From: an uncultured virus (IMG/VR IMGVR_UViG_3300024297_000002)
Lineage: Duplodnaviria; Heunggongvirae; Uroviricota; Caudoviricetes
IMG/VR virus record: IMGVR_UViG_3300024297_000002
Direction: 5' to 3' (one strand)
DNA length: 57,584 nt
The position numbers were made by a program, and so were the translations under genes. Below are positions 7,908-57,343 of this stretch, piece by piece (position 1 is the stretch's first letter; every line of letters starts with the position of its first letter). A model generated the notes under the pieces. The model saw only the letters and a program-made list of their open reading frames with translations. It was not told the origin of the DNA and ran no database searches.

Positions 7908-7951
7908 AATTAGAGTAGCATTATAAATTACATTCGGCCTCCCGAATAAGG

Positions 7952-7979
7952 AAAAAGCGTCTTTATAGACGCTTTTTTT
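7952..7979 (+). terminator. Rho-independent terminator, possibly bidirectional
   Basis: AAAAAGCGTCT-TTAT-AGACGCTTTTTTT; preceded by a small hairpin ATTCGG-CCTC-CCGAAT (7932-7947). Confidence 0.85.
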
Positions 7980-18147: not shown

Positions 18148-18157
18148 TATAAAAAAT

Positions 18158-18196
18158 TACCAGACCCTGATTTTCAATTGACGGTCAGGGTCTAGT
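18158..18196. promoter_or_regulatory. Inverted repeat overlapping the putative uvsX -35 box
   Basis: AGACCCTGA...TCAGGGTCT arms around a TCAATTGA palindrome and TTGACG. Confidence 0.5.
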
Positions 18197-18217
18197 ATGT
18201 TAATATAAGGGATAAAG

Positions 18218-48018: not shown

Positions 48019-48318
48019 TTAAGGTTTAATTTTTATTTCTAAAATAGCAGGATCTTGATCTAATGTACCGTTGGGTGTGTTCCACTCGAGTTCATCGTCT
48101 TTACGACATTCATATCCTTCTATTGTGATAGCAACGTGCATATTTCCATATTTGTATTTTAAATATTGTTTTAATGATCCTTCTAACATAATTTTGTTGT
48201 TAGGATTTTGTAGATACATTTCGCACTCTGCCATTGTTTCAAACGGTACTGCTGTGAAATTTGTTGTGTCTTTGGCTCCACCTGGAAGCATTAACATCGC
48301 TACAATTAAAAAATACAT
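48019..48318 (-). CDS. Small two-Cys hypothetical protein (repeated family)
   Basis: MYFLIVAML...FETMAEC...YEC. Confidence 0.6.
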   Translation of the reverse strand: MYFLIVAMLMLPGGAKDTTNFTAVPFETMAECEMYLQNPNNKIMLEGSLKQYLKYKYGNMHVAITIEGYECRKDDELEWNTPNGTLDQDPAILEIKIKP

Positions 48319-48348
48319 GATAATCTTATTTACGATAAAAGTCTAAAT

Positions 48349-48951
48349 TTAGGCTTTATTATCTTCTTCTCTGCTATGCACAATTTTGTCTGCTAATCCG
48401 TAAGCAATAGATTCTTCGGAAGTCATGAACTTGTCTCGTTCCATGTCTGCTTTAAGTTTGTCTAATGTTTGTCCTGTGTGCTTCTCGTAAATTTTTGTAA
48501 GTTCATCTTTCCATCTTAATAATTCTTTTGCTTGGATTTCAACATCTGTTGCTTGTCCTCTTGCACCACCTAACGGTTGGTGTATCATGTGTCTTGAGTG
48601 AGGTAACATCATACGTTTACCTTTAGTTCCTGCTGAAGCCAACAACGATCCCATAGAACAGGCTTGTCCAATTACAATAGTTTGTATATCAGATTTAACA
48701 TATTGCATGGTGTCGTATATGGCCATACCAGCAGTAACTAATCCGCCAGGGGAGTTTATGTATAAAACTATATCTTTGCCAGGTGCTTGTGATTCTAAGA
48801 ATAACAACTGAGCACATAACACAGAAGCGGTATGTTCACCAATTGGTCCTTCTAACATAATAATTCTGTCTTTAAGTAAACGAGAAAAGATGTCATAACT
48901 TCTTTCGCCTTTGCTTGTTTGCTCTATTACAATTGGTACTAGTGAACTCAT
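48349..48951 (-). CDS. clpP: ATP-dependent Clp protease proteolytic subunit
   Basis: [42 protein letters not shown]-17-TATTAT 6 nt before ATG. Confidence 0.97.
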
Positions 48952-49001
48952 ACTCATATAATAATACATTTCCTTTCGAATGTCAACCTTGTTTACTTTT
49001 T

Positions 49002-49046
49002 GCAGGTGGGTGGTGTATTGGCACCACCCTTCCAATATTAACCTGC
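49002..49046 (-). ncRNA. Structured 45-nt element (minihelix/pseudoknot-like) directly after the tRNA-like RNA
   Basis: GCAGGT/ACCTGC outer stem, GGGTGGTG/CACCACCC hairpin, loop CCAATA complementary to upstream TATTGG. Confidence 0.55.
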
Positions 49047-49136
49047 TGGTACGGTTTACAGGATTTGAACCTGTATAAAAATAGATGAACTATTGCGTCT
49101 AACCCTCATGAGTCTCCCCACTTCCGCCAAAACCGC
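49047..49136 (-). ncRNA. Non-canonical tRNA-like RNA (expanded D-loop, 5-nt anticodon loop)
   Basis: Acceptor GCGGTTT/AAACCGT + ACCA; T-arm ACAGG-TTCAAAT-CCTGT; Leu-like GCG/CGC D-stem. Confidence 0.75.
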
Positions 49137-49143
49137 AATTATT

Positions 49144-49172
49144 ATTATAGATGAATTGTATTAACTTTGCAA
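49144..49172 (-). promoter_or_regulatory. Sigma70 promoter of the tRNA-like RNA
   Basis: TTGCAA-17-TATAAT, 7 nt before G1. Confidence 0.75.
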
Positions 49173-49175
49173 GAG

Positions 49176-49574
49176 TTATAGTTCGTTTATTCCTTCGTTC
49201 ATTCCTTGCTCTAACCCTGTTATTAGACCTGTTAAAATTGCAATACCAAATAATATTGCTAGTATGATAATAGGACTTGCTAACCAAAGATACCAATAGT
49301 GTCTGAGTATTCCTCTGCCTAGTTCTAAACGTTTCTTTCTGTTATCCATAAACCAATGCACAACAAATTTAATAACTCGTTTAAGATTTTTAGAAATAAA
49401 CTTTTTGAACAACCAACGTAATACTCTCATAACAATTAATATTGGAGAACTTAAAACGTCAAATACTATTAAGAATACGTCAACACTCAAGTCGACAATG
49501 TTATCGGCAGTTGCGGCTTTACGAAATCTCTGTCGCAGTGTAGGTTTGGTAGATATTATATCTCTGTCTGCCAT
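49176..49574 (-). CDS. Hypothetical membrane protein
   Basis: Hydrophobic segments; TAATG coupling to the HtrA-like gene. Confidence 0.65.
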   Translation of the reverse strand: MADRDIISTKPTLRQRFRKAATADNIVDLSVDVFLIVFDVLSSPILIVMRVLRWLFKKFISKNLKRVIKFVVHWFMDNRKKRLELGRGILRHYWYLWLASPIIILAILFGIAILTGLITGLEQGMNEGINEL

Positions 49575-50683
49575 TAGTTCTGCTCAGGATCTTTACCAAA
49601 CACTCTTACCTGTGTTGGTTCTGCTTTGCCAAGTACAACGTTATACGTTTTATACTTGCCGTTTCTATAAATTTTTATACTAATAGTATCACCGGGCATC
49701 TTCTTCCAGAGTATTCTAATAACTTGATTAGTAACTTGTACTTTTTCGCCATCAATAGAAACTATTATGTCACCTTGTTTTATACCATATTGCTCTGCCG
49801 CTCCACCTTCTGATAAACCTTTTACTTCTAAATAATGTTCTTTGCCTGAATCTCTTAATTCATAAAACAGATCTTGATCTTCTATTATTCCCATTAGGAT
49901 ACCTATAGATGGTTTTATATGTTTGCCAAATTCAAGTATATGGTTTGCTACTCTTTCAACTAATGCAGTTGGAACCGAATACCCATATCCTACATAATAC
50001 TTTGTCGGCGATATGATTAATGTGTTTACTCCAATTACATCACCTTGCTCATTCAATAAAGGACCTCCGGAGTTACCCGAATTGATAACTGCATCTGTTT
50101 GCAGATAACTTACCCAACTTGATTGTTGATTTGGTCTTGTATCGTATCCTATAATACCTGTTGTCAGTGACCACATTTGTCCTGTGCCATGTCCTAACGC
50201 AAATACTGTGTCACCTATTAATGGATCTTCTGTTGCAAACTTTAATATACCGTGATCAATAGTTGGTGTTGCCGGAAGTTTTAACACGGCAATATCAGAC
50301 TCAACATCAAAGCCTACAACTATTACACCATTAATTTCATAAGGATGTCCCCATGCATAAATTTTAATTGATGTTGCGTTTTGAACTACATGATAATTTG
50401 TAACAATATGTCTTTCATCTATAAAGAATCCTGTACCCATAGCAACCTTTGGTGGGAACAACGGAATTACTTCCGGTTCCGGTGGATCTATATGTAACGG
50501 AGGGGGCAGTGACTCATTACTGTTTGGGCCATTAGGAAACTTTAAAAACGATGTTTGCTCTGTGCTAATCAGTACTACTGATTCAAATGCGTTTTCCCAC
50601 TTCCATTCTCGAGTATCTTCTTGAGCAATAGCAGGAAAAGAAATAGAGATTATTAATATTGCAACAAAAAGTAGTCTTTTCAT
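49574..50683 (-). CDS. htrA: HtrA/DegP-family serine protease with PDZ domain
   Basis: Signal peptide, GTGF, TNYHV, DIAVL, QTDAVINSGNSGGPL, C-terminal PDZ. Confidence 0.92.
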   Translation of the reverse strand: MKRLLFVAILIISISFPAIAQEDTREWKWENAFESVVLISTEQTSFLKFPNGPNSNESLPPPLHIDPPEPEVIPLFPPKVAMGTGFFIDERHIVTNYHVVQNATSIKIYAWGHPYEINGVIVVGFDVESDIAVLKLPATPTIDHGILKFATEDPLIGDTVFALGHGTGQMWSLTTGIIGYDTRPNQQSSWVSYLQTDAVINSGNSGGPLLNEQGDVIGVNTLIISPTKYYVGYGYSVPTALVERVANHILEFGKHIKPSIGILMGIIEDQDLFYELRDSGKEHYLEVKGLSEGGAAEQYGIKQGDIIVSIDGEKVQVTNQVIRILWKKMPGDTISIKIYRNGKYKTYNVVLGKAEPTQVRVFGKDPEQN

Positions 50684-50702
50684 GCAAATATTTATTGTAA
50701 AA

Positions 50703-51473
50703 TTACAGTATTTTTTTGTCGTGTATGAATTGTAGCAGGAGGTCTGCCCATTGGTGATGTCCCTTTTGGGAAGGATGAGCGTCATTAAAAGATTTTCTCA
50801 AACCTTGTTGAGCACAATACTCGAAGTGTGACTGAACATAATCGGTATTGGGTACTGTTACCGTTTCGTTTTTTGTCTTCATTTCGTTGTAAATTTTAAT
50901 GTTTTCTTTAACGTGTTCCGATGTTTCAAAGTTATAGAAACGATCTGTGTCAACGGCACCTTTTAAATTTTTTAAATCTCCGTCGTCGTGCAGTTCATTT
51001 GATAATGCCCAGTACATCAAATAAGGAATGTTATGTAATTTAAAAAAGTCTTGTAGTGTTAAAATATTTGTGTACAGTCTAACTGTTGCCGCCATTTCGA
51101 TATCAATATCTTTGTCACGTGCTATCCATTCGTTTTCCCAAAGTCTCCACGTACCCCACTGATAAGAAAACTTACCTATCTCGTTTGTTCTTTTAACACC
51201 TTTCATTCTATCGTAATCTGTTTTGCCATGGATGTAATCCCACCGTTGTCCAGATGACCAACCGATAGTAACAAAAGTATCTTTGAATCTGTCTGGATTA
51301 TTATAGAACCAATGCATAGTAGTAGTAACCATTCTGTCGTTACCCCTGCCGCCTTTGGCTAATGTTATAGTTGGCAGATTTAAATGTTCACCTAACTTCT
51401 GATGACAATTCATAAATGCTTTGCTAGTACTAAAACTGCAACCGTTACTTAAATGATTTATAATGTTTTTCAC
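50703..51473 (-). CDS. SGNH-like hypothetical protein
   Basis: NGCSF, G.GN, IGWS...R, DAHPS..GH. Confidence 0.6.
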   Translation of the reverse strand: MKNIINHLSNGCSFSTSKAFMNCHQKLGEHLNLPTITLAKGGRGNDRMVTTTMHWFYNNPDRFKDTFVTIGWSSGQRWDYIHGKTDYDRMKGVKRTNEIGKFSYQWGTWRLWENEWIARDKDIDIEMAATVRLYTNILTLQDFFKLHNIPYLMYWALSNELHDDGDLKNLKGAVDTDRFYNFETSEHVKENIKIYNEMKTKNETVTVPNTDYVQSHFEYCAQQGLRKSFNDAHPSQKGHHQWADLLLQFIHDKKIL

Positions 51474-52122: not shown

Positions 52123-52446
52123 ATGAAACTGTCAGGAAATTGGAAAACAGACGGCAAGACAACTGTTAGCGAATCAAACTATTCAGTTGTTGACAACGAA
52201 ACACTGAAAACAATGACTCTGTCAGGAATGACAATCCAACCCAACAGCGACTCATTCAGACACGGACACAAAGGACATGAAGAAATTTATATGTTCGTGC
52301 GAGGCACAGGATCAATGCAACTCAACAATGATTCCAAGTTTGGGGTTGCACCAGGAGACATTGTGTTGATACCGGACGGTACTACACACGAAGTCTGGAA
52401 CACCGGAGGAGAAGAATTATATTTCTTAATGATATATGGAAATTGA
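52123..52446 (+). CDS. Cupin domain protein
   Basis: H.H...EEIY....G.G, GD...IP....H...NTG; start 5 nt after TAAATA. Confidence 0.85.
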   Translation: MKLSGNWKTDGKTTVSESNYSVVDNETLKTMTLSGMTIQPNSDSFRHGHKGHEEIYMFVRGTGSMQLNNDSKFGVAPGDIVLIPDGTTHEVWNTGGEELYFLMIYGN

Positions 52447-53293
52447 CACAGATCACGGAACACTAGAAGCAACCATACCCGATAATCAAAAAGGTGTGGG
52501 TGTTGCAATCAGTGGCGGAATGGATTCCGCTACACTGCTCTATATGTTATGCAGACAGATCAGAGACAGACAACTTGACATTCCTGTATACTGTTACATA
52601 GTTGCATATGATTACGACAGGGGTTCATTGTACAACGGTGGACTTGTTATCAAACATATGCGTAAAGAGTTTCCGGACGTGAAAATTCATGCACAGATGT
52701 TTGTTACAGCAGAAGCAATAGGTAGCATGAAGGCACAGTTCGCAGGTGCCATGTTTCACGAAACGTTGCGTAAAAATAAATGGACGGGGACAGAATTTAG
52801 ATTATGGTTTGGATTGACTTCCAATCCACAGGATGATTCTTTTAAGTTTGAAACTCCTAAAGAATGGTATGTCACGCCCGATGATGCAAGACAACCTGGC
52901 AACATTGACTTAAAAGCAAAACCCAGATACGGTATAGGTGCTTGTCATCCGTTTGTGCTTGTGGACAAAAGAGTTATTGTTCAAGCAGTATGGAAGATGG
53001 ACCTGTGGTACTGCTTTGATACAATCACAAACTCTTGCACTAACATTAAAGAGTATGACTGTGGCAGTTGTTGGTGGTGTCAAGAAAGAGCATGGGCAAC
53101 AAAAATTTCAGTGCCAGAGGAGGATCAGCCTAGAAGTGGCGTACAAAAATTAATTCATTACAGCACACAAATACCTATCAGTAAGTTGTGGAGAGATGGT
53201 GTTGTGTGGACCAAGGAAGGCTACGAGGCCAGAATAAAATTCGAAGAAGAGAATCCTCAGTTTTTTAAAACGTTTGAACAACGAGTATCTTAA
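52436..53293 (+). CDS. QueC-like PP-loop ATPase (paralog 1)
   Basis: SGGMDS PP-loop; PF...DK; SC-x7-CxxCxxC-ER. Confidence 0.75.
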   Translation: MEIDTDHGTLEATIPDNQKGVGVAISGGMDSATLLYMLCRQIRDRQLDIPVYCYIVAYDYDRGSLYNGGLVIKHMRKEFPDVKIHAQMFVTAEAIGSMKAQFAGAMFHETLRKNKWTGTEFRLWFGLTSNPQDDSFKFETPKEWYVTPDDARQPGNIDLKAKPRYGIGACHPFVLVDKRVIVQAVWKMDLWYCFDTITNSCTNIKEYDCGSCWWCQERAWATKISVPEEDQPRSGVQKLIHYSTQIPISKLWRDGVVWTKEGYEARIKFEEENPQFFKTFEQRVS

Positions 53294-54394
53294 ATGATAC
53301 TGACGACCAAACACGGAACAATTGAAGCAACAATTAGTCCTGTCACGAAGGCTGTCATGGTTGCGGTCAGTGGTGGAATGGATTCTGCCGTTCTACTCTA
53401 TATGCTTTGCAAACAGATACGTGATAACAATTTAGGAATACCTGTGTACACCGGCACGGCCTCCTACAACAGTGACAGGGTTGCCACCTTTCATGCTTCG
53501 ATGGTAGTGAAGCATATGAGAAAGGAGTTCCCGGATATAACTATCCACCCGATGTACTGGACAGGGGAAGGCAACGTTGGCGAGATCAAACCACTGTTGG
53601 TTGAAACTATGTACAGCGATATAAGATTAAAAAATGGTTGGACAAAACATCAGTTCAAGTTGTGGTGGGGTGTTACCGGAAATCCAAGTGACGATAGTTT
53701 CAAGTTTGTGGAACCGGAGGGACACTACGTAGTTCCCCGAGAACCAAACCATTCACCTGCAAAGGTTAGGTACGGCTTGGGTTTCGCAAATCCATTTGCG
53801 AGGATAGACAAGAGACTGATTGTTGCCGCACAGATAGAATACGGATTGTTTGAATGTTACACTAGCATAACAAACAGTTGCACGTCTTTAACTGAATACC
53901 AGTGCAACAAGTGTTGGTGGTGCCAGGAACGTGACTGGGCGATAGAACAGGTTGTTCCAAAAGAACTTGTGGCTCCAAAGGATACTGCGCCAATGAGTCA
54001 TTACGACAAATTAGGAATTGATAAAAAATGGAAAGCGGGTGTTAGATGGAACAAGGAAGCATACCTGGAACGACTCAAAATGGAAGAGGAGCATTTGTCT
54101 GCAAGTGATAAACTTGTATGGGCAAAGCGATTTCTGGAGGGGATGGCTAAGGATTGCGGCACACTAGACACCAGCAAATTTAAACTAGGTGTGCGTTATA
54201 TGGAATATTCCATTAAAGAGGACAGGTATTATATAAGTGCCGGCAAGGGCGAAGAAAGAATAGGACCATTACCGACCATAAGGGACTGCTGGCCAATGTT
54301 TGATGATGTCGAGATAGTTGATTGTGCTAACGAAATACAATTGATGCTGGAAACTGGTGTTAACCCTGGGGAGACGTTACCGCCTCCCGCATGA
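53294..54394 (+). CDS. QueC-like PP-loop ATPase (paralog 2) with C-terminal extension
   Basis: SGGMDS; PF...DK; SC-x7-CxxCWWCQER. Confidence 0.75.
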   Translation: MILTTKHGTIEATISPVTKAVMVAVSGGMDSAVLLYMLCKQIRDNNLGIPVYTGTASYNSDRVATFHASMVVKHMRKEFPDITIHPMYWTGEGNVGEIKPLLVETMYSDIRLKNGWTKHQFKLWWGVTGNPSDDSFKFVEPEGHYVVPREPNHSPAKVRYGLGFANPFARIDKRLIVAAQIEYGLFECYTSITNSCTSLTEYQCNKCWWCQERDWAIEQVVPKELVAPKDTAPMSHYDKLGIDKKWKAGVRWNKEAYLERLKMEEEHLSASDKLVWAKRFLEGMAKDCGTLDTSKFKLGVRYMEYSIKEDRYYISAGKGEERIGPLPTIRDCWPMFDDVEIVDCANEIQLMLETGVNPGETLPPPA

Positions 54395-56053: not shown

Positions 56054-57343
56054 TTAAAACAAAAAAGAAAACATTTCTGGATTTACTGTTTTGAGTGTGT
56101 TGCCGCGAATTTTTTCAACTGCTGTTGTGAGTTTTTGGAAATGCTTACGATATTTGGGGTCTTGTGTTTCTGGGAACAGTGCTGGATTCAATTGTTTGCT
56201 ATAAAAGTCACTCCATTGTGCGTGAGGCACTTGAGCAAATCTATTATATATTGTTTCTGCTTGTCTTTTATTAAGCAAGTTACTAAATGCTTGATCGCCT
56301 GTCACTTGATCCGGCCAGTTGGTCGCTGGATCTAATCCTACGTCTTGCATCCACTCATACCATTCATGCCATTTGTTTACTGTGAACACACTGACAGCAG
56401 ACTGAACTTCTAATTGTATTCCGTTGTCTTCTTTGGCTAACTGTACCCATTTCTTAGCATTGTTAGTATATTCATTCCATTTAGTTCCATATCGTACGTA
56501 TTCTGCTAATGCTCCTGTGCTCTCACCAGATATACGCAAGTACACGTTCTTCATACGAGTAAACGATTGTATAATACTGTCTTTTGGAAACAATGAGTTG
56601 TTGGTGTTGATATACAATGATACTTTGGATAGATCACAACGATCTGCCAGTCTTGTAAGGAACTCATCAAATATACGAATCATGAACGGCTCACCACCTT
56701 TTATATAAAGCATACGCAGTTCTGATAGATCGGACAATAGTATTTGCTCCATTATATGATACTCGTTGTCGTGTGTATGATATTCTGAGACTTTGTTCTG
56801 TGCAAAGTATTCTGGCTGATCAGGAAACTCTATGTTCTGTAACTGTTTAGAAGTCTTATTCCATTCTGATGATGAATAAGCATTACAGTACACACATTGG
56901 AAATTGCAAAAGTTAGAGAACATCACATCGAGATGTACTATCTTACCCGGTGCATGACGTTCTGGTACTCGTTGATGTGCTCTGCCACGCAACGATGAGA
57001 ATACTGTTTCACCTACTTTGGATGCATCTATATTAACATAGCCATATGTTTTTTCACGAACACGACATTTAGTACATGGGCCTTTAGCAAGTTTAGGATA
57101 TGTAAAAGTTGAATCTGTATTAACGTCTTCGAGGTAACTGTTTAGTGCATAGTTGTTGTGTCGTTCACGTGATCCATTCTTAAGTTTAGTAACATCAAAG
57201 TAACAACATGGTGTAACTGCAAATGTATCTTTATCAATTGCCGATGATATACATACGCCATTGGTTATGAACGCACATTCTTTATTGTTTAATAAGTGCT
57301 TATGTGGATTCTGGTCTCTGAACTTCTTGCTTATTGTTGGCAT
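56054..57343 (-). CDS. Twitch-domain radical SAM protein
   Basis: N-terminal C...PCC...CTKC; CNFQCVYC..SSS.W; GGEPF; TN; EYVRYG..W. Confidence 0.9.
   Translation of the reverse strand: MPTISKKFRDQNPHKHLLNNKECAFITNGVCISSAIDKDTFAVTPCCYFDVTKLKNGSRERHNNYALNSYLEDVNTDSTFTYPKLAKGPCTKCRVREKTYGYVNIDASKVGETVFSSLRGRAHQRVPERHAPGKIVHLDVMFSNFCNFQCVYCNAYSSSEWNKTSKQLQNIEFPDQPEYFAQNKVSEYHTHDNEYHIMEQILLSDLSELRMLYIKGGEPFMIRIFDEFLTRLADRCDLSKVSLYINTNNSLFPKDSIIQSFTRMKNVYLRISGESTGALAEYVRYGTKWNEYTNNAKKWVQLAKEDNGIQLEVQSAVSVFTVNKWHEWYEWMQDVGLDPATNWPDQVTGDQAFSNLLNKRQAETIYNRFAQVPHAQWSDFYSKQLNPALFPETQDPKYRKHFQKLTTAVEKIRGNTLKTVNPEMFSFLF

What the first reader, a model, noticed from the sequence alone, without database searches (positions are those of the whole stretch)
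49001..49046. Second structured RNA abutting the CCA: acceptor/T-arm-like minihelix with a competing pairing
Seen: with zero spacer after the CCA comes GCAGGT-TAA-TATTGG-AA-GGGTGGTG-CCAATA-CACCACCC-ACCTGC-A. Three perfect complementary pairs (6, 6 and 8 bp) sit in 45 nt. The 8-bp hairpin stacks directly on the 6-bp closing stem, like T-arm on acceptor stem, and its loop can pair with the 5' linker like a D/T elbow. It has no U-tract on the transcribed strand and lies just upstream of the clpP promoter. Inference: a compact tRNA-mimic or switch RNA co-transcribed with the tRNA-like RNA, forming a two-RNA module between htrA and clpP. Full simultaneous pairing of both inner helices is sterically doubtful, so they may be alternative folds.
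Basis: partly seen in the sequence, partly recalled or inferred. Interest (0 to 1): 0.7.

Follow-up and report, generated by a model that had tools for sequence, protein, structure and literature searches.

The report
Conserved pseudoknot hairpin after phage tRNA
A very stable RNA hairpin, whose loop can also pair with its own 5' flank, sits directly after the 3' end of a leucine-tRNA-like gene in this marine phage and in about thirty related viral sequences, so it is a real, uncatalogued RNA element that probably shapes or protects that RNA end.

Summary
On the minus strand, 49046-49002 carries three perfect complementary pairs: P1 6 bp, P2 8 bp, and the P2 loop against a 6-nt segment X in the 5' bulge. 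It starts with no spacer after the encoded ACCA of a tRNA-Leu-like gene. It is the most stable 46-nt fold in the 57.6-kb window and occurs once.

It is not a one-off. The same layout follows the same tRNA-Leu(-like) 3' end in 31 of 42 viral contigs and 7 of 45 metagenome contigs fetched by pattern. All three pairings covary: 15 of 20 pairs change on both sides, including 5 of 6 loop-flank pairs. G.U pairs place the structure on the tRNA strand, so it acts as RNA.

No Rfam family matches. None of the 19 parsed trailers has a U-tract. In 9 of these 19 trailers, and in L110 and L131, an ORF starts 11-25 nt downstream with no room for a promoter.

My reading is a new conserved 3'-trailer element, an apical-loop/internal-loop pseudoknot type, that defines, processes or protects the tRNA-like 3' end. 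It is not a canonical terminator, an HDV-like ribozyme or a true tRNA mimic. The mechanism is inferred, not shown.

The tRNA partner is itself odd. Its anticodon arm is often replaced by a tetraloop hairpin, and it often lies beside a permuted tmRNA, HtrA or ClpP.

The parts
49144..49172 (-). Sigma-70-like promoter of the tRNA-like cassette (TTGCAA-17-TATAAT). The -10 box ends 7 nt before the first base of the tRNA-like RNA, so the predicted start is at or next to G1.
   Evidence: 10 of 12 consensus positions. The spacing is read. The same -10 + 6-7 nt + G1 layout is seen by eye in L013, L153, L172, L177 and L190.
49047..49136 (-). tRNA-Leu-like RNA with encoded ACCA. It has a 7-bp acceptor stem and a Leu-type D-arm with an inserted GNRA-capped hairpin. 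Its 'anticodon' hairpin has only a 5-nt loop. The T-arm is normal.
   Evidence: Rfam tRNA scores 35.2 bits only in sensitive mode. ARAGORN does not call it. Compensatory acceptor and D-insert changes are seen in L013.
49041..49046 (-). P1 5' strand (6 nt), starting with no spacer after ACCA
   Evidence: 4 of 6 P1 pairs change on both sides.
49032..49037 (-). X: a 6-nt segment in the 11-nt 5' bulge, perfectly complementary to the P2 loop
   Evidence: 5 of 6 X:X' pairs change on both sides; 7 X/X' sequence classes.
49022..49029 (-). P2 5' strand (8 nt, G-rich)
   Evidence: 6 of 8 P2 pairs change on both sides.
49016..49021 (-). X': the 6-nt apical loop of P2, complementary to X
49008..49015 (-). 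P2 3' strand
   Evidence: A natural variant gives a G.U pair here (L107; RNA contig of run X19).
49002..49007 (-). P1 3' strand, directly abutting P2 3' with no spacer, so the 3' strand is continuous over 14 nt
   Evidence: The variant A>G gives a U.G pair in L107, L133, L134 and L143.
48987..49001 (-). A-rich, U-poor tail between the element and the clpP -35 box
   Evidence: The tails of all 19 distinct relatives are A/C-rich with at most 2 T in the first 8 nt.
48958..48986 (-). clpP promoter-like site (TTGACA-17-TATTAT). It belongs to the downstream gene, not to the element. clpP's conserved ATG lies at 48951.
   Evidence: 11 of 12. The same promoter and start layout is seen in clpP relatives lacking the element.

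Best explanation
The 45-nt element is one member of a conserved, previously uncatalogued RNA motif. The motif forms the 3' trailer of a phage tRNA-Leu-derived gene cassette: promoter or upstream RNA gene, then the tRNA-like RNA ending in ACCA, then the motif. Its ground state is an extended hairpin. P1 (5-7 bp) stacks on P2 (7-8 bp) through a continuous 3' strand, for 13-14 bp in all, with a 10-14-nt bulge on the 5' side. A 6-nt stretch of that bulge (X) is always complementary to the P2 apical loop (X'). This is an apical-loop/internal-loop pseudoknot topology. I infer that the motif works as RNA at the tRNA-like 3' end. A very stable, torsionally locked structure starts 0-3 nt after CCA. It would fix where a host endonuclease separates the tRNA-like RNA from downstream RNA. 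RNase E or RNase P would do this, as they do for E. coli proK/L/M and leuX terminator hairpins. It would also stop 3'-to-5' exonucleases coming from read-through RNA. After cleavage it would leave downstream RNA with a base-paired 5' end. Shown: the structure, its conservation, its strand, its exclusive link to this tRNA 3' end, and the absence of a U-tract. Inferred: the cleavage and barrier roles, and what the X:X' pairing adds (a folding intermediate, a partial pseudoknot or an intermolecular contact).
For: (1) Real and exceptional fold.
(2) Family: 31 of 42 viral loci fetched with a tRNA 3'-end pattern carry it. 28 were found by descriptor. L158 has 5 of 6 X:X' pairs, L168 is the P1-less variant, and L188 is cut off at the locus end. 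7 of 45 metagenome loci also carry it.
(3) Covariation was counted on 11 of the 20 aligned member sequences, those whose X and X' fell in common columns. 100% of 215 cells are paired, against 78.2 +/- 1.9% in shuffles (0 of 500 reach it). 15 of 20 pairs change on both sides, against 7.6 +/- 1.6 (0 of 500). Slid controls pair 39-46% of cells. The X:X' helix was not part of the model that made the alignment, yet 5 of its 6 pairs change on both sides.
(4) There are 7 X/X' sequence classes. Cross-pairing X of one class with X' of another gives 3.4 of 6 pairs on average and at most 5 (n = 302).
(5) Strand: 20 G.U pairs sit in P1 and P2 of the 19 parsed sequences. On the other strand these would be A.C mismatches.
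(6) Specificity: of 120 distinct bacterial tRNA trailers with the same 3' end, 64 have a hairpin but only 1 has a loop-flank complement, against 17 of 29 viral trailers. The descriptor found 2 weak hits in 488 kb of clpP loci, neither with a P1. A pattern built from the motif alone found 10 contigs, all already found through the tRNA. A complete 328-kb phage genome has one copy.
(7) Not a canonical terminator. All 19 tails are A/C-rich. In 9 of 19 distinct trailers an AGGAG-type ribosome-binding site and an ATG follow within about 8-25 nt. In L110 and L131 an ORF starts 11-12 nt after the hairpin. Canonical U-tract terminators exist elsewhere in the window, at 18155-18200 and 7931-7976. RNA-library contigs bridge the tRNA-like gene, the motif and clpP: X15 over 48803-49204 and X19 over 48700-49120. 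This last point is weak, because such contigs do not prove one transcript.
(8) Precedent, from abstracts: RNase E cuts immediately downstream of CCA to remove whole terminator hairpins of proK/L/M (PMC5291269). RNase P or PNPase removes the leuX hairpin (PMC2811032).
Against: No RNA ends were mapped. Only assembled contigs were available, and these cannot show ends. The other five tRNAs in this window also encode CCA and have no such element, so the element is not needed for tRNA 3' maturation in general. A plain hairpin would suffice for a nuclease barrier or a 5' cap, so this reading does not explain why the loop-flank complementarity is so strictly kept. Three lineages lack P1 (L013/L110, L131/L141, L163/L186), so a base-paired 5' terminus is not universal. 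Four loci from the same scan hold a tRNA or tRNA-like RNA with a Leu-type D-arm and the same acceptor end but lack the motif (L161, L166, L183, L189). In the window the downstream gene has its own promoter, so protection of a downstream mRNA is not needed here.
Confidence: 0.42

Rival explanations
1. U-tract-less transcription terminator. The hairpin simply ends the monocistronic tRNA-like transcription unit, as terminator hairpins do after proK, proL, proM and leuX in E. coli.
For: Its position at the 3' boundary of a promoter-tRNA cassette is the classic place for a terminator. It is the strongest hairpin in the window. In the window, L013, L107 and L133 a new promoter follows it. In L165 and L172 an ATAAATA late-promoter-like box follows (read by eye).
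Against: None of the 19 parsed trailers, nor the P1-less variants read by eye (L013/L110, L131), has a U-tract. The tails are A/C-rich. The same genome uses canonical hairpin + U-tract terminators elsewhere. Downstream ORFs start 11-25 nt after the element with only a ribosome-binding site in 9 of 19 distinct trailers, and in L110 and L131. RNA-library contigs run across it (weak). Termination does not explain the conserved loop-flank pairing.
Confidence: 0.15
2. RNase P-recruiting minihelix mimic, the closest form of the first reader's idea. P1 + P2 would imitate the coaxial acceptor/T-arm helix, so that RNase P cuts at the 5' foot of P1, 0-3 nt after CCA. This is how tandem tRNA precursors are separated.
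For: The 3' strand is continuous and the 5' strand interrupted, as in acceptor/T stacking. P1 + P2 totals 13-14 bp in the 18 trailers with a P1, although the single stems vary (5+8, 6+7, 7+7, 6+8). The first P1 base is G in 17 of 19. The spacing to CCA is 0-3 nt. RNase P is reported to remove hairpins just 3' of tRNA-Leu5 CCA and of valine tRNA operons (abstract of PMC2811032; search listing for PMC4176162).
Against: There is no T-loop consensus and no RCCA tail after P1. P2 is 7-8 bp, not 5. Three lineages have no P1. The motif scores nothing with tRNA models.
Confidence: 0.12
3. Conformational switch or leader element controlling the downstream gene. P2 and X:X' would be alternative states that change access to the ribosome-binding site or the stability of downstream mRNA.
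For: Both P2 and X:X' covary, but the connectors are only 0-2 nt, so full coexistence is doubtful. X:X' is the predicted fold of the nascent chain at 32-36 nt and is replaced by P2 from 38 nt. In many relatives the motif lies 8-25 nt upstream of a ribosome-binding site.
Against: The downstream genes differ: clpP with its own promoter, a roughly 45-aa membrane peptide, and unrelated ORFs. The upstream tRNA-like end is constant. No unpaired nucleotides are conserved, as a ligand pocket would need. State P1 + X:X' is 12 kcal/mol less stable than P1 + P2. No riboswitch family matches.
Confidence: 0.1
X of one molecule would pair with the loop of another, giving dimers or rings, as the bulge and hairpin loops of phi29 packaging RNA do (recalled, not tested here).
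For: The complementarity is strictly conserved and covaries, yet it is sterically awkward within one molecule.
Against: There is no evidence of oligomers. Large contractile-tailed phages are not known to use packaging RNA (recalled). The motif is tied to a tRNA end, not to packaging genes.
Confidence: 0.05
5. Self-cleaving ribozyme that frees the tRNA 3' end, an analogue of the HDV-like theta ribozymes found next to gut-phage tRNAs.
For: The element has the same genomic logic: a structured RNA within a few nt of a phage tRNA 3' end (PMC10879173, section 7 read).
Against: No HDV or other ribozyme family matches, at E up to 10 in the window and up to 1 in 13 member loci. The strand order is P1-X-P2-X'-P2-P1, not the nested P1/P2/P3/P1.1 of HDV. 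There is no conserved 3' partner, because the downstream flanks differ. No unpaired nucleotide is conserved that could serve as a catalytic core. Theta ribozymes mostly follow tRNAs without an encoded CCA (4.5% encode one), whereas here CCA is always encoded.
Confidence: 0.04
6. DNA-level site, such as an attP core, an origin or a protein-binding palindrome.
For: tRNA 3' ends are common integration sites, and the site contains nested inverted repeats.
Against: The 20 G.U pairs are tolerated only on the tRNA strand. The tRNA-like gene is complete and has its own promoter. The carriers are large contractile-tailed phages or relatives of the lytic-type HTVC008M. Structure is conserved but sequence is not.
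Confidence: 0.02

Closest known systems
Rho-independent terminator hairpins immediately 3' of monocistronic tRNA genes (E. coli proK/proL/proM, leuX)
   Same: The cassette layout is the same: promoter, very short or no 5' leader, tRNA with encoded CCA, then a stable hairpin starting next to CCA. In E. coli the hairpin is removed in one step by RNase E cutting just after CCA, or by RNase P or PNPase (abstracts).
   Different: This element has no U-tract in any of the 19 parsed members and an A/C-rich tail. It has an 11-nt 5' bulge and a conserved loop-bulge complementarity. Downstream ORFs are often co-transcribed.
HDV-like theta ribozymes next to gut-phage tRNAs (Kienbeck et al. 2024, PMC10879173)
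   Same: Both are compact structured RNAs placed within a few nt of a phage tRNA 3' end and proposed to handle the 3' trailer.
   Different: The fold topology differs. There is no catalytic-core conservation and no Rfam HDV match. The habitat is marine rather than gut. CCA is encoded here but rarely there.
Apical-loop/internal-loop (ALIL) pseudoknots of frameshift stimulators (Mazauric et al. 2008, cited in PMC5009743)
   Same: The topology is the same: the apical loop of an extended hairpin is complementary to a lateral bulge (passages read). That bacterial insertion-sequence cases use the same hairpin is recalled.
   Different: Those lie inside coding regions and act on ribosomes. This one is non-coding and tied to a tRNA end. 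Its connectors are much shorter (0-2 nt), so simultaneous formation is doubtful.
tRNA 3' external transcribed spacer RNAs (3'ETS of leuZ) and tRNA-like-plus-hairpin units such as MHV68 TMERs
   Same: In both, a functional or stable RNA piece is made from the sequence directly 3' of a tRNA(-like) by tRNA-processing nucleases.
   Different: X and X' covary freely, so there is no conserved single-stranded seed. Nothing shows that the motif accumulates as a separate RNA.
T4 species 1 and 2 RNAs (rnaC, rnaD)
   Same: They are small tRNA-like stable RNAs of unknown function inside a large phage's tRNA region (annotation).
   Different: No P1/P2/X motif follows them.

Membership tests
Intrinsic (Rho-independent) terminator | G+C-rich hairpin | tested here: met
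   P2 has 8 bp, 6 of them G-C. The whole fold is -23.5 kcal/mol.
Intrinsic (Rho-independent) terminator | U-tract directly 3' of the stem | tested here: not met
   The site is not listed by the terminator scan. The tails of 19 of 19 distinct relatives are A/C-rich with at most 2 T in 8 nt.
Intrinsic (Rho-independent) terminator | Transcripts end there | tested here: inconclusive
   Two RNA-library contigs bridge the site (X15, X19), but contigs cannot show ends and may hold DNA. ORFs without promoters follow in 9 of 19 trailers.
HDV-like / theta ribozyme | Nested double pseudoknot (P1, P1.1, P2, P3, P4 or a linker) with the P2 3' strand downstream of P1 | tested here: not met
   The strand order is P1-X-P2-X'-P2-P1. 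The sequence 3' of P1 is not conserved among contexts. No HDV-type Rfam hit.
HDV-like / theta ribozyme | Catalytic cytosine in J4/2 | tested here: not met
   No J4/2 equivalent exists, and no unpaired base is invariant.
HDV-like / theta ribozyme | Start within +/-5 nt of a tRNA 3' end | tested here: met
   0-3 nt after ACCA in 19 of 19.
tRNA / acceptor-T minihelix mimic | 7-bp + 5-bp coaxial stems with a 7-nt T-loop (TTCRANY) | tested here: not met
   Stems are 5-7 + 7-8 bp. Loops are 6-8 nt and fall in 7 unrelated sequence classes.
tRNA / acceptor-T minihelix mimic | Single-stranded NCCA 3' tail | tested here: not met
   No common NCCA follows P1 in the tails.
tRNA / acceptor-T minihelix mimic | Scores with tRNA models | tested here: not met
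   ARAGORN and the Rfam tRNA model match only the upstream tRNA-like gene, at 49050-49136.
ALIL / H-type pseudoknot (structural class) | Apical loop complementary to a bulge or flank of the same hairpin, kept by covariation | tested here: met
   5 of 6 X:X' pairs change on both sides. There are 7 classes. The variant lineages L013 to L131 show an A-T to G-C swap.
ALIL / H-type pseudoknot (structural class) | Both helices form at once | not testable with these tools
   Connectors of 0-2 nt argue against full coexistence. No pseudoknot-aware folding or probing was available.
Known pseudoknot riboswitches (preQ1, SAM-II/V, glutamine-II, guanidine-III, fluoride) | Match to the family model and conserved ligand-pocket nucleotides | tested here: not met
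   No Rfam match at E up to 10 in the window or up to 1 in 13 member loci. The joiners vary in sequence and length.

The most novel reading that the evidence does not exclude
The motif is the gate of a new kind of phage RNA device. An anticodon-less, still chargeable tRNA-Leu-like RNA would be released or held back by a bistable or self-associating pseudoknot at its CCA end. It would serve non-ribosomal chemistry in a phage proteolysis programme, for example as a dedicated leucine donor for L/F-transferase N-degron tagging. That programme would also include the neighbouring permuted tmRNA, ClpP and HtrA-like protease.
Probability: 0.06. Interest if true: 0.9.

Novelty: new variant of a known kind. 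Interest (0 to 1): 0.6.

Why it matters
Structured RNAs that are conserved in shape but not in sequence are rare finds in phage genomes. This one has covariation support as strong as many curated families, yet it matches none of the 4227 Rfam models. It occurs once per genome and is bound to a tRNA-Leu-derived RNA that has often lost its anticodon. It therefore points to an unknown step in how marine phages make or use tRNA-like RNAs. The carriers include a relative of pelagiphage HTVC008M and a complete 328-kb phage. The strictly kept but sterically awkward loop-flank pairing is a well-defined problem in RNA folding: switch, partial knot or oligomer. If the element proves to be a self-contained 3'-end-forming module, it would also be a useful part for expressing exact-ended RNAs.

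Tried and rejected
- The window's own assembly is not held. The nearest record, G001, does not contain the region.
- blastn of 48300-49700 against 50,697 phage records matched only clpP coding sequence.
- Of the 17 closest clpP loci, only L013 has the module.
- The HtrA-based locus search gave two new loci, L149 and L150, without the module.
- The first strict pattern found only the near-identical contig and four coding false positives.
- The looser viral pattern gave mostly tail-fibre false positives, plus L093, a different D-loop-insert tRNA-like RNA.
- Of 45 metagenome loci, 38 were GC-rich coding false positives.
I used it only as a negative control. Whether SAR11-type hosts carry the motif was therefore not tested.
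- MAFFT misaligned the subfamilies (A1). The covariance-model alignments A3 and A4 put X and X' in different columns for 9 of 20 sequences, so the official pair count used the 11 consistent rows only. L158's X mismatch is hidden there as a gap.
- My own parser demands a perfect 6-nt complement. 'Perfect' is therefore by construction for the 19 it accepts. The informative figure is that L158 alone among trailers with P1 and P2 fails, with 5 of 6 pairs.
- RNA runs: X16 has contigs on both sides but none over 49000-49070, and X17 has none over the motif. A part without cover shows nothing.
- No complementarity of X or X' to the tRNA-like body recurs among 17 members.
- T4 rnaC and rnaD and the whole T4 and HTVC008M records have no match to model R1.
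- blastn of the L172 tRNA + motif against phage records matched the tRNA part only, and 0 of 99 records cover 80% of the query. No cultured phage with the motif was found this way.
- Earlier findings of this scan: nothing relevant.
- Literature searches found no description of the element: 'pseudoknot' + 'downstream of tRNA' + 'phage' gave 0 papers, and 'tRNA-like' + 'marine' + 'myovirus' + 'pseudoknot' gave 1 unrelated review. The library lacks most subscription journals, so this is not proof that it is unpublished.

Full report
**1. What is in the window**

The following is read on the minus strand. An HtrA-like protease gene (49574-50785) and a 132-aa ORF (49176-49574) come first. A sigma-70-like promoter follows (TTGCAA-17-TATAAT, 49172-49144). 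Seven nt later a tRNA-shaped RNA begins (49136-49047). It scores 35.2 bits with the Rfam tRNA model only in the sensitive search, and ARAGORN misses it.

This RNA ends in an encoded ACCA. With no spacer comes the flagged element:
- P1a, 49046-41
- 3 nt
- X, 49037-32
- 2 nt
- P2a, 49029-22
- loop X', 49021-16
- P2b, 49015-08
- P1b, 49007-02

Fifteen A-rich nt further on lies the clpP promoter-like site (TTGACA-17-TATTAT, 48986-48958). clpP's ATG is at 48951.

The window belongs to a large phage with a contractile tail. PHROGs matches include a tail sheath, a tail tube, a large terminase, a UvsX-like recombinase and a DnaB-like helicase.

**2.

- The predicted fold is P1 (6 bp) closing an 11-nt 5' bulge and P2 (8 bp, 6-nt loop). 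Its energy is -23.5 kcal/mol, against -12.2 +/- 2.7 for shuffles (0 of 200 as stable).
- Among all 46-nt windows on both strands of the 57.6-kb sequence, it is the most stable.
- The next most stable sites, at 18155-18200 and 7931-7976, are ordinary hairpin-plus-U-tract terminators. This genome therefore uses canonical terminators, and this site is not one.
- A descriptor for P2 plus a 6-nt loop complement 1-4 nt upstream finds only this site in the window. It found two sites in twenty shuffled windows, none with a P1.
- A covariance model with filters off also finds one site.

**3. Relatives**

- Only one of the 17 closest clpP loci (L013) has the module.
- A pattern from the odd D-arm found 7 of 45 metagenome loci with it.
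- A pattern from the T-arm and acceptor 3' end found 42 viral loci, and 31 of them carry the element.
- The other 11 are ordinary tRNAs, or tRNAs and tRNA-like RNAs with a Leu-type D-arm, without it (L156, L160, L161, L164, L166, L167, L170, L171, L183, L189, L192).

The layout is constant. After ACCA come 0-3 nt, then P1 (5-7 bp). Next are a 2-5-nt joiner, X (6 nt) and a 2-3-nt joiner. Then come P2 (7-8 bp) and a loop of 6-8 nt that contains X'. P2b is followed within 0-1 nt by P1b, and then by an A/C-rich tail. P1 + P2 totals 13-14 bp throughout.

Three lineages lack P1 but keep a longer P2 and the loop-flank complementarity: L013/L110, L131/L141 and L163/L186. Between L013 and L131 an A-T pair of X:X' has become G-C.

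**4. Covariation and strand**

I counted pairs on the 11 sequences whose X and X' columns line up.
- All 215 cells pair, against 78% in shuffles (0 of 500 reach it).
- 15 of 20 pairs show changes on both sides, against 7.6 (0 of 500).
- Slid controls pair 39-46% of cells.
- By helix, the pairs with changes on both sides are P1 4 of 6, X:X' 5 of 6 and P2 6 of 8.

The alignment was fitted to P1 and P2 but not to X:X', so the pseudoknot result is the least biased.

Over 19 distinct sequences there are seven X/X' classes. Mismatched class pairs give 3.4 of 6 pairs on average. One sequence, L158, has an uncompensated change (5 of 6).

P1 and P2 hold 20 G.U pairs, which would be A.C on the other strand. 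The structure is therefore RNA, made from the tRNA strand. The same wobble variants appear in an RNA-library contig (X19).

**5. Specificity**

- Of 120 distinct bacterial tRNA trailers with the same 3' end, 64 have a hairpin but only 1 has a loop-flank complement. The figure for viral trailers is 17 of 29.
- The descriptor gave 2 weak hits without P1 in 488 kb of phage clpP loci, and none in 74 kb of bacterial flanks.
- A pattern built from the motif alone returned 10 contigs, all already known through the tRNA.
- A complete 328-kb phage genome has one copy, after its tRNA-Leu(UAA). A second weak model hit there is a normal terminator.
- HTVC008M and T4 have none.
- No phage record in the INPHARED copy matched beyond the tRNA part.

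**6. What it is not**

- No Rfam family matches the element, in the window at E up to 10 or in 13 member loci at E up to 1. The same searches did find tRNA and tmRNA there.
- It is not a canonical terminator. None of the 19 tails has a U-tract. In 9 of 19 distinct trailers a ribosome-binding site and an ATG follow within about 8-25 nt. In L110 and L131 an ORF starts 11-12 nt after the hairpin.
- Two RNA-library contigs bridge the tRNA-like gene, the motif and clpP. This is weak evidence.
- It is not HDV-like. The strand order is wrong, there is no conserved 3' partner, and there is no conserved unpaired base.
- It is not a tRNA mimic in the strict sense. It has no T-loop and no NCCA tail, and P1 is dispensable in some lineages.
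- X and X' show no recurring complementarity to the tRNA body.

**7. The loop-flank pairing**

Read as an H-type knot, the order is X, then 2-3 nt, P2a, 0-1 nt, X', 0-2 nt, and P2b.
- The 2-3-nt joiner could cross the deep groove of a 7-8-bp P2.
- By established pseudoknot geometry (an inference), 0-2 nt cannot cross the shallow groove of a 6-bp helix. The full X:X' helix and the full P2 should therefore not coexist.

Energies are -23.5 kcal/mol for P1 + P2 and -11.3 for P1 + X:X'. X:X' is the best fold of the nascent chain between 32 and 36 nt.

Three readings remain open: a co-transcriptional intermediate, a partial knot with the top of P2 open, or pairing between molecules. Topologically it belongs with apical-loop/internal-loop pseudoknots.

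**8. Most likely function (inferred)**

The element marks the 3' boundary of a self-contained cassette. The 5' end of the RNA is set by initiation at G1, or by the preceding RNA gene. The 3' end must be set next to a very stable structure.

E. coli offers the closest precedent. There, hairpins abutting the CCA of proK/L/M are removed by a single RNase E cut just after CCA, and the leuX hairpin is removed by RNase P or PNPase (abstracts).

I therefore favour an end-defining, nuclease-blocking trailer that is cut off at its 5' foot and then caps the downstream RNA.

This reading has weaknesses. The other five tRNAs of the window do without such an element. A plain hairpin would also do the job, so the pseudoknot is unexplained.

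**9. Context noticed**

The tRNA partner is peculiar.
- In 22 member loci, ARAGORN tRNA-Leu, 7 with odd anticodons, and 10 not at all.
- In several, a 3-4-bp hairpin with a UUCG or GAGA tetraloop replaces the anticodon arm.
- In 9 of the 22 loci a circularly permuted tmRNA lies just upstream, with tags such as ANFNEYALAA. The same tmRNA sits unannotated in HTVC008M.
- In the window lineage the neighbours are an HtrA-like protease and ClpP.

This recurring proteolysis and ribosome-rescue neighbourhood is the basis of the bold reading given separately.

**10. Verdict**

This is a real RNA motif, apparently undescribed and strongly supported by covariation. It is a new variant among structured tRNA 3' trailers. 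Its biochemical role is open.

Noticed in passing
window 49047-49136 (-); L155, L173, L175, L180, L184 and others: The tRNA-Leu-like partner looks non-decoding. In the window it has a GNRA-capped hairpin inserted in the D-loop and a 5-nt 'anticodon' loop. In relatives a tiny UUCG or GAGA tetraloop hairpin replaces the anticodon arm. ARAGORN of 22 tRNA-Leu, 7 of 22 with odd anticodons (one CUA, one 4-nt) and 10 of 22 not at all. The acceptor stem, A73 and CCA are kept.
   Followed up: partly
L151, L155, L162, L169, L173, L175, L179, L180, L184; L193 1470-1781 (HTVC008M, NC_020484.1, about 145.1-145.4 kb): A circularly permuted (two-piece) alphaproteobacterial-type tmRNA gene lies directly upstream of the tRNA-Leu-like gene in 9 of 22 member loci. 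Its tags include ANFNEYALAA and ANENNFALAA. The HTVC008M record has the tmRNA in an unannotated intergenic stretch, but neither the tRNA-like gene nor the motif.
   Followed up: partly
window 48951-48986 (-); L001-L017: clpP seems almost leaderless. The -10 box is followed by 6 nt and then the conserved ATG. The same TTGACA / -10 / short spacer / ATG layout recurs in the close clpP relatives (read by eye).
   Followed up: partly
window 49144-49172 (-); L013, L153, L172, L177, L190; L152: The tRNA-like cassette puts its -10 box 6-7 nt before G1 (in L152, a TATAAATA box 5 nt before it). The primary transcript would then start at the mature 5' end, with no RNase P step needed.
   Followed up: partly
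window 48349-50785 (-) and relatives: The cassette recurs beside protein quality-control genes: an HtrA-like protease, ClpP and tmRNA. One untested idea is that an anticodon-less but chargeable Leu-tRNA-like RNA feeds aminoacyl-tRNA-protein transferases of the N-degron pathway.
   Followed up: no
window 52436-53293 and 53294-54394 (+); 56054-57343 (-): Two tandem paralogous ORFs share a 90-nt stretch at 71% identity and a PP-loop-like SGGxDS motif. A radical-SAM-like ORF lies nearby. Together they may be a nucleoside or base modification pathway.
   Followed up: no
L093 (IMG/VR contig 3300042260_000111): Another phage tRNA-Leu-like gene has an insertion in the D-loop but no encoded CCA and no motif after it.
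   Followed up: no
window 18155-18200 (-) and 7931-7976 (-): These are canonical hairpin + U-tract terminators (the second looks bidirectional). They show that the phage uses ordinary intrinsic terminators elsewhere.
   Followed up: no
L151, L155, L162, L173, L180, L184, downstream of the motif: A conserved membrane peptide of about 45 aa (it starts MFEV.., MIEA.. or MMDF..) with a strong ribosome-binding site follows the motif in the tmRNA-linked lineage.
   Followed up: no
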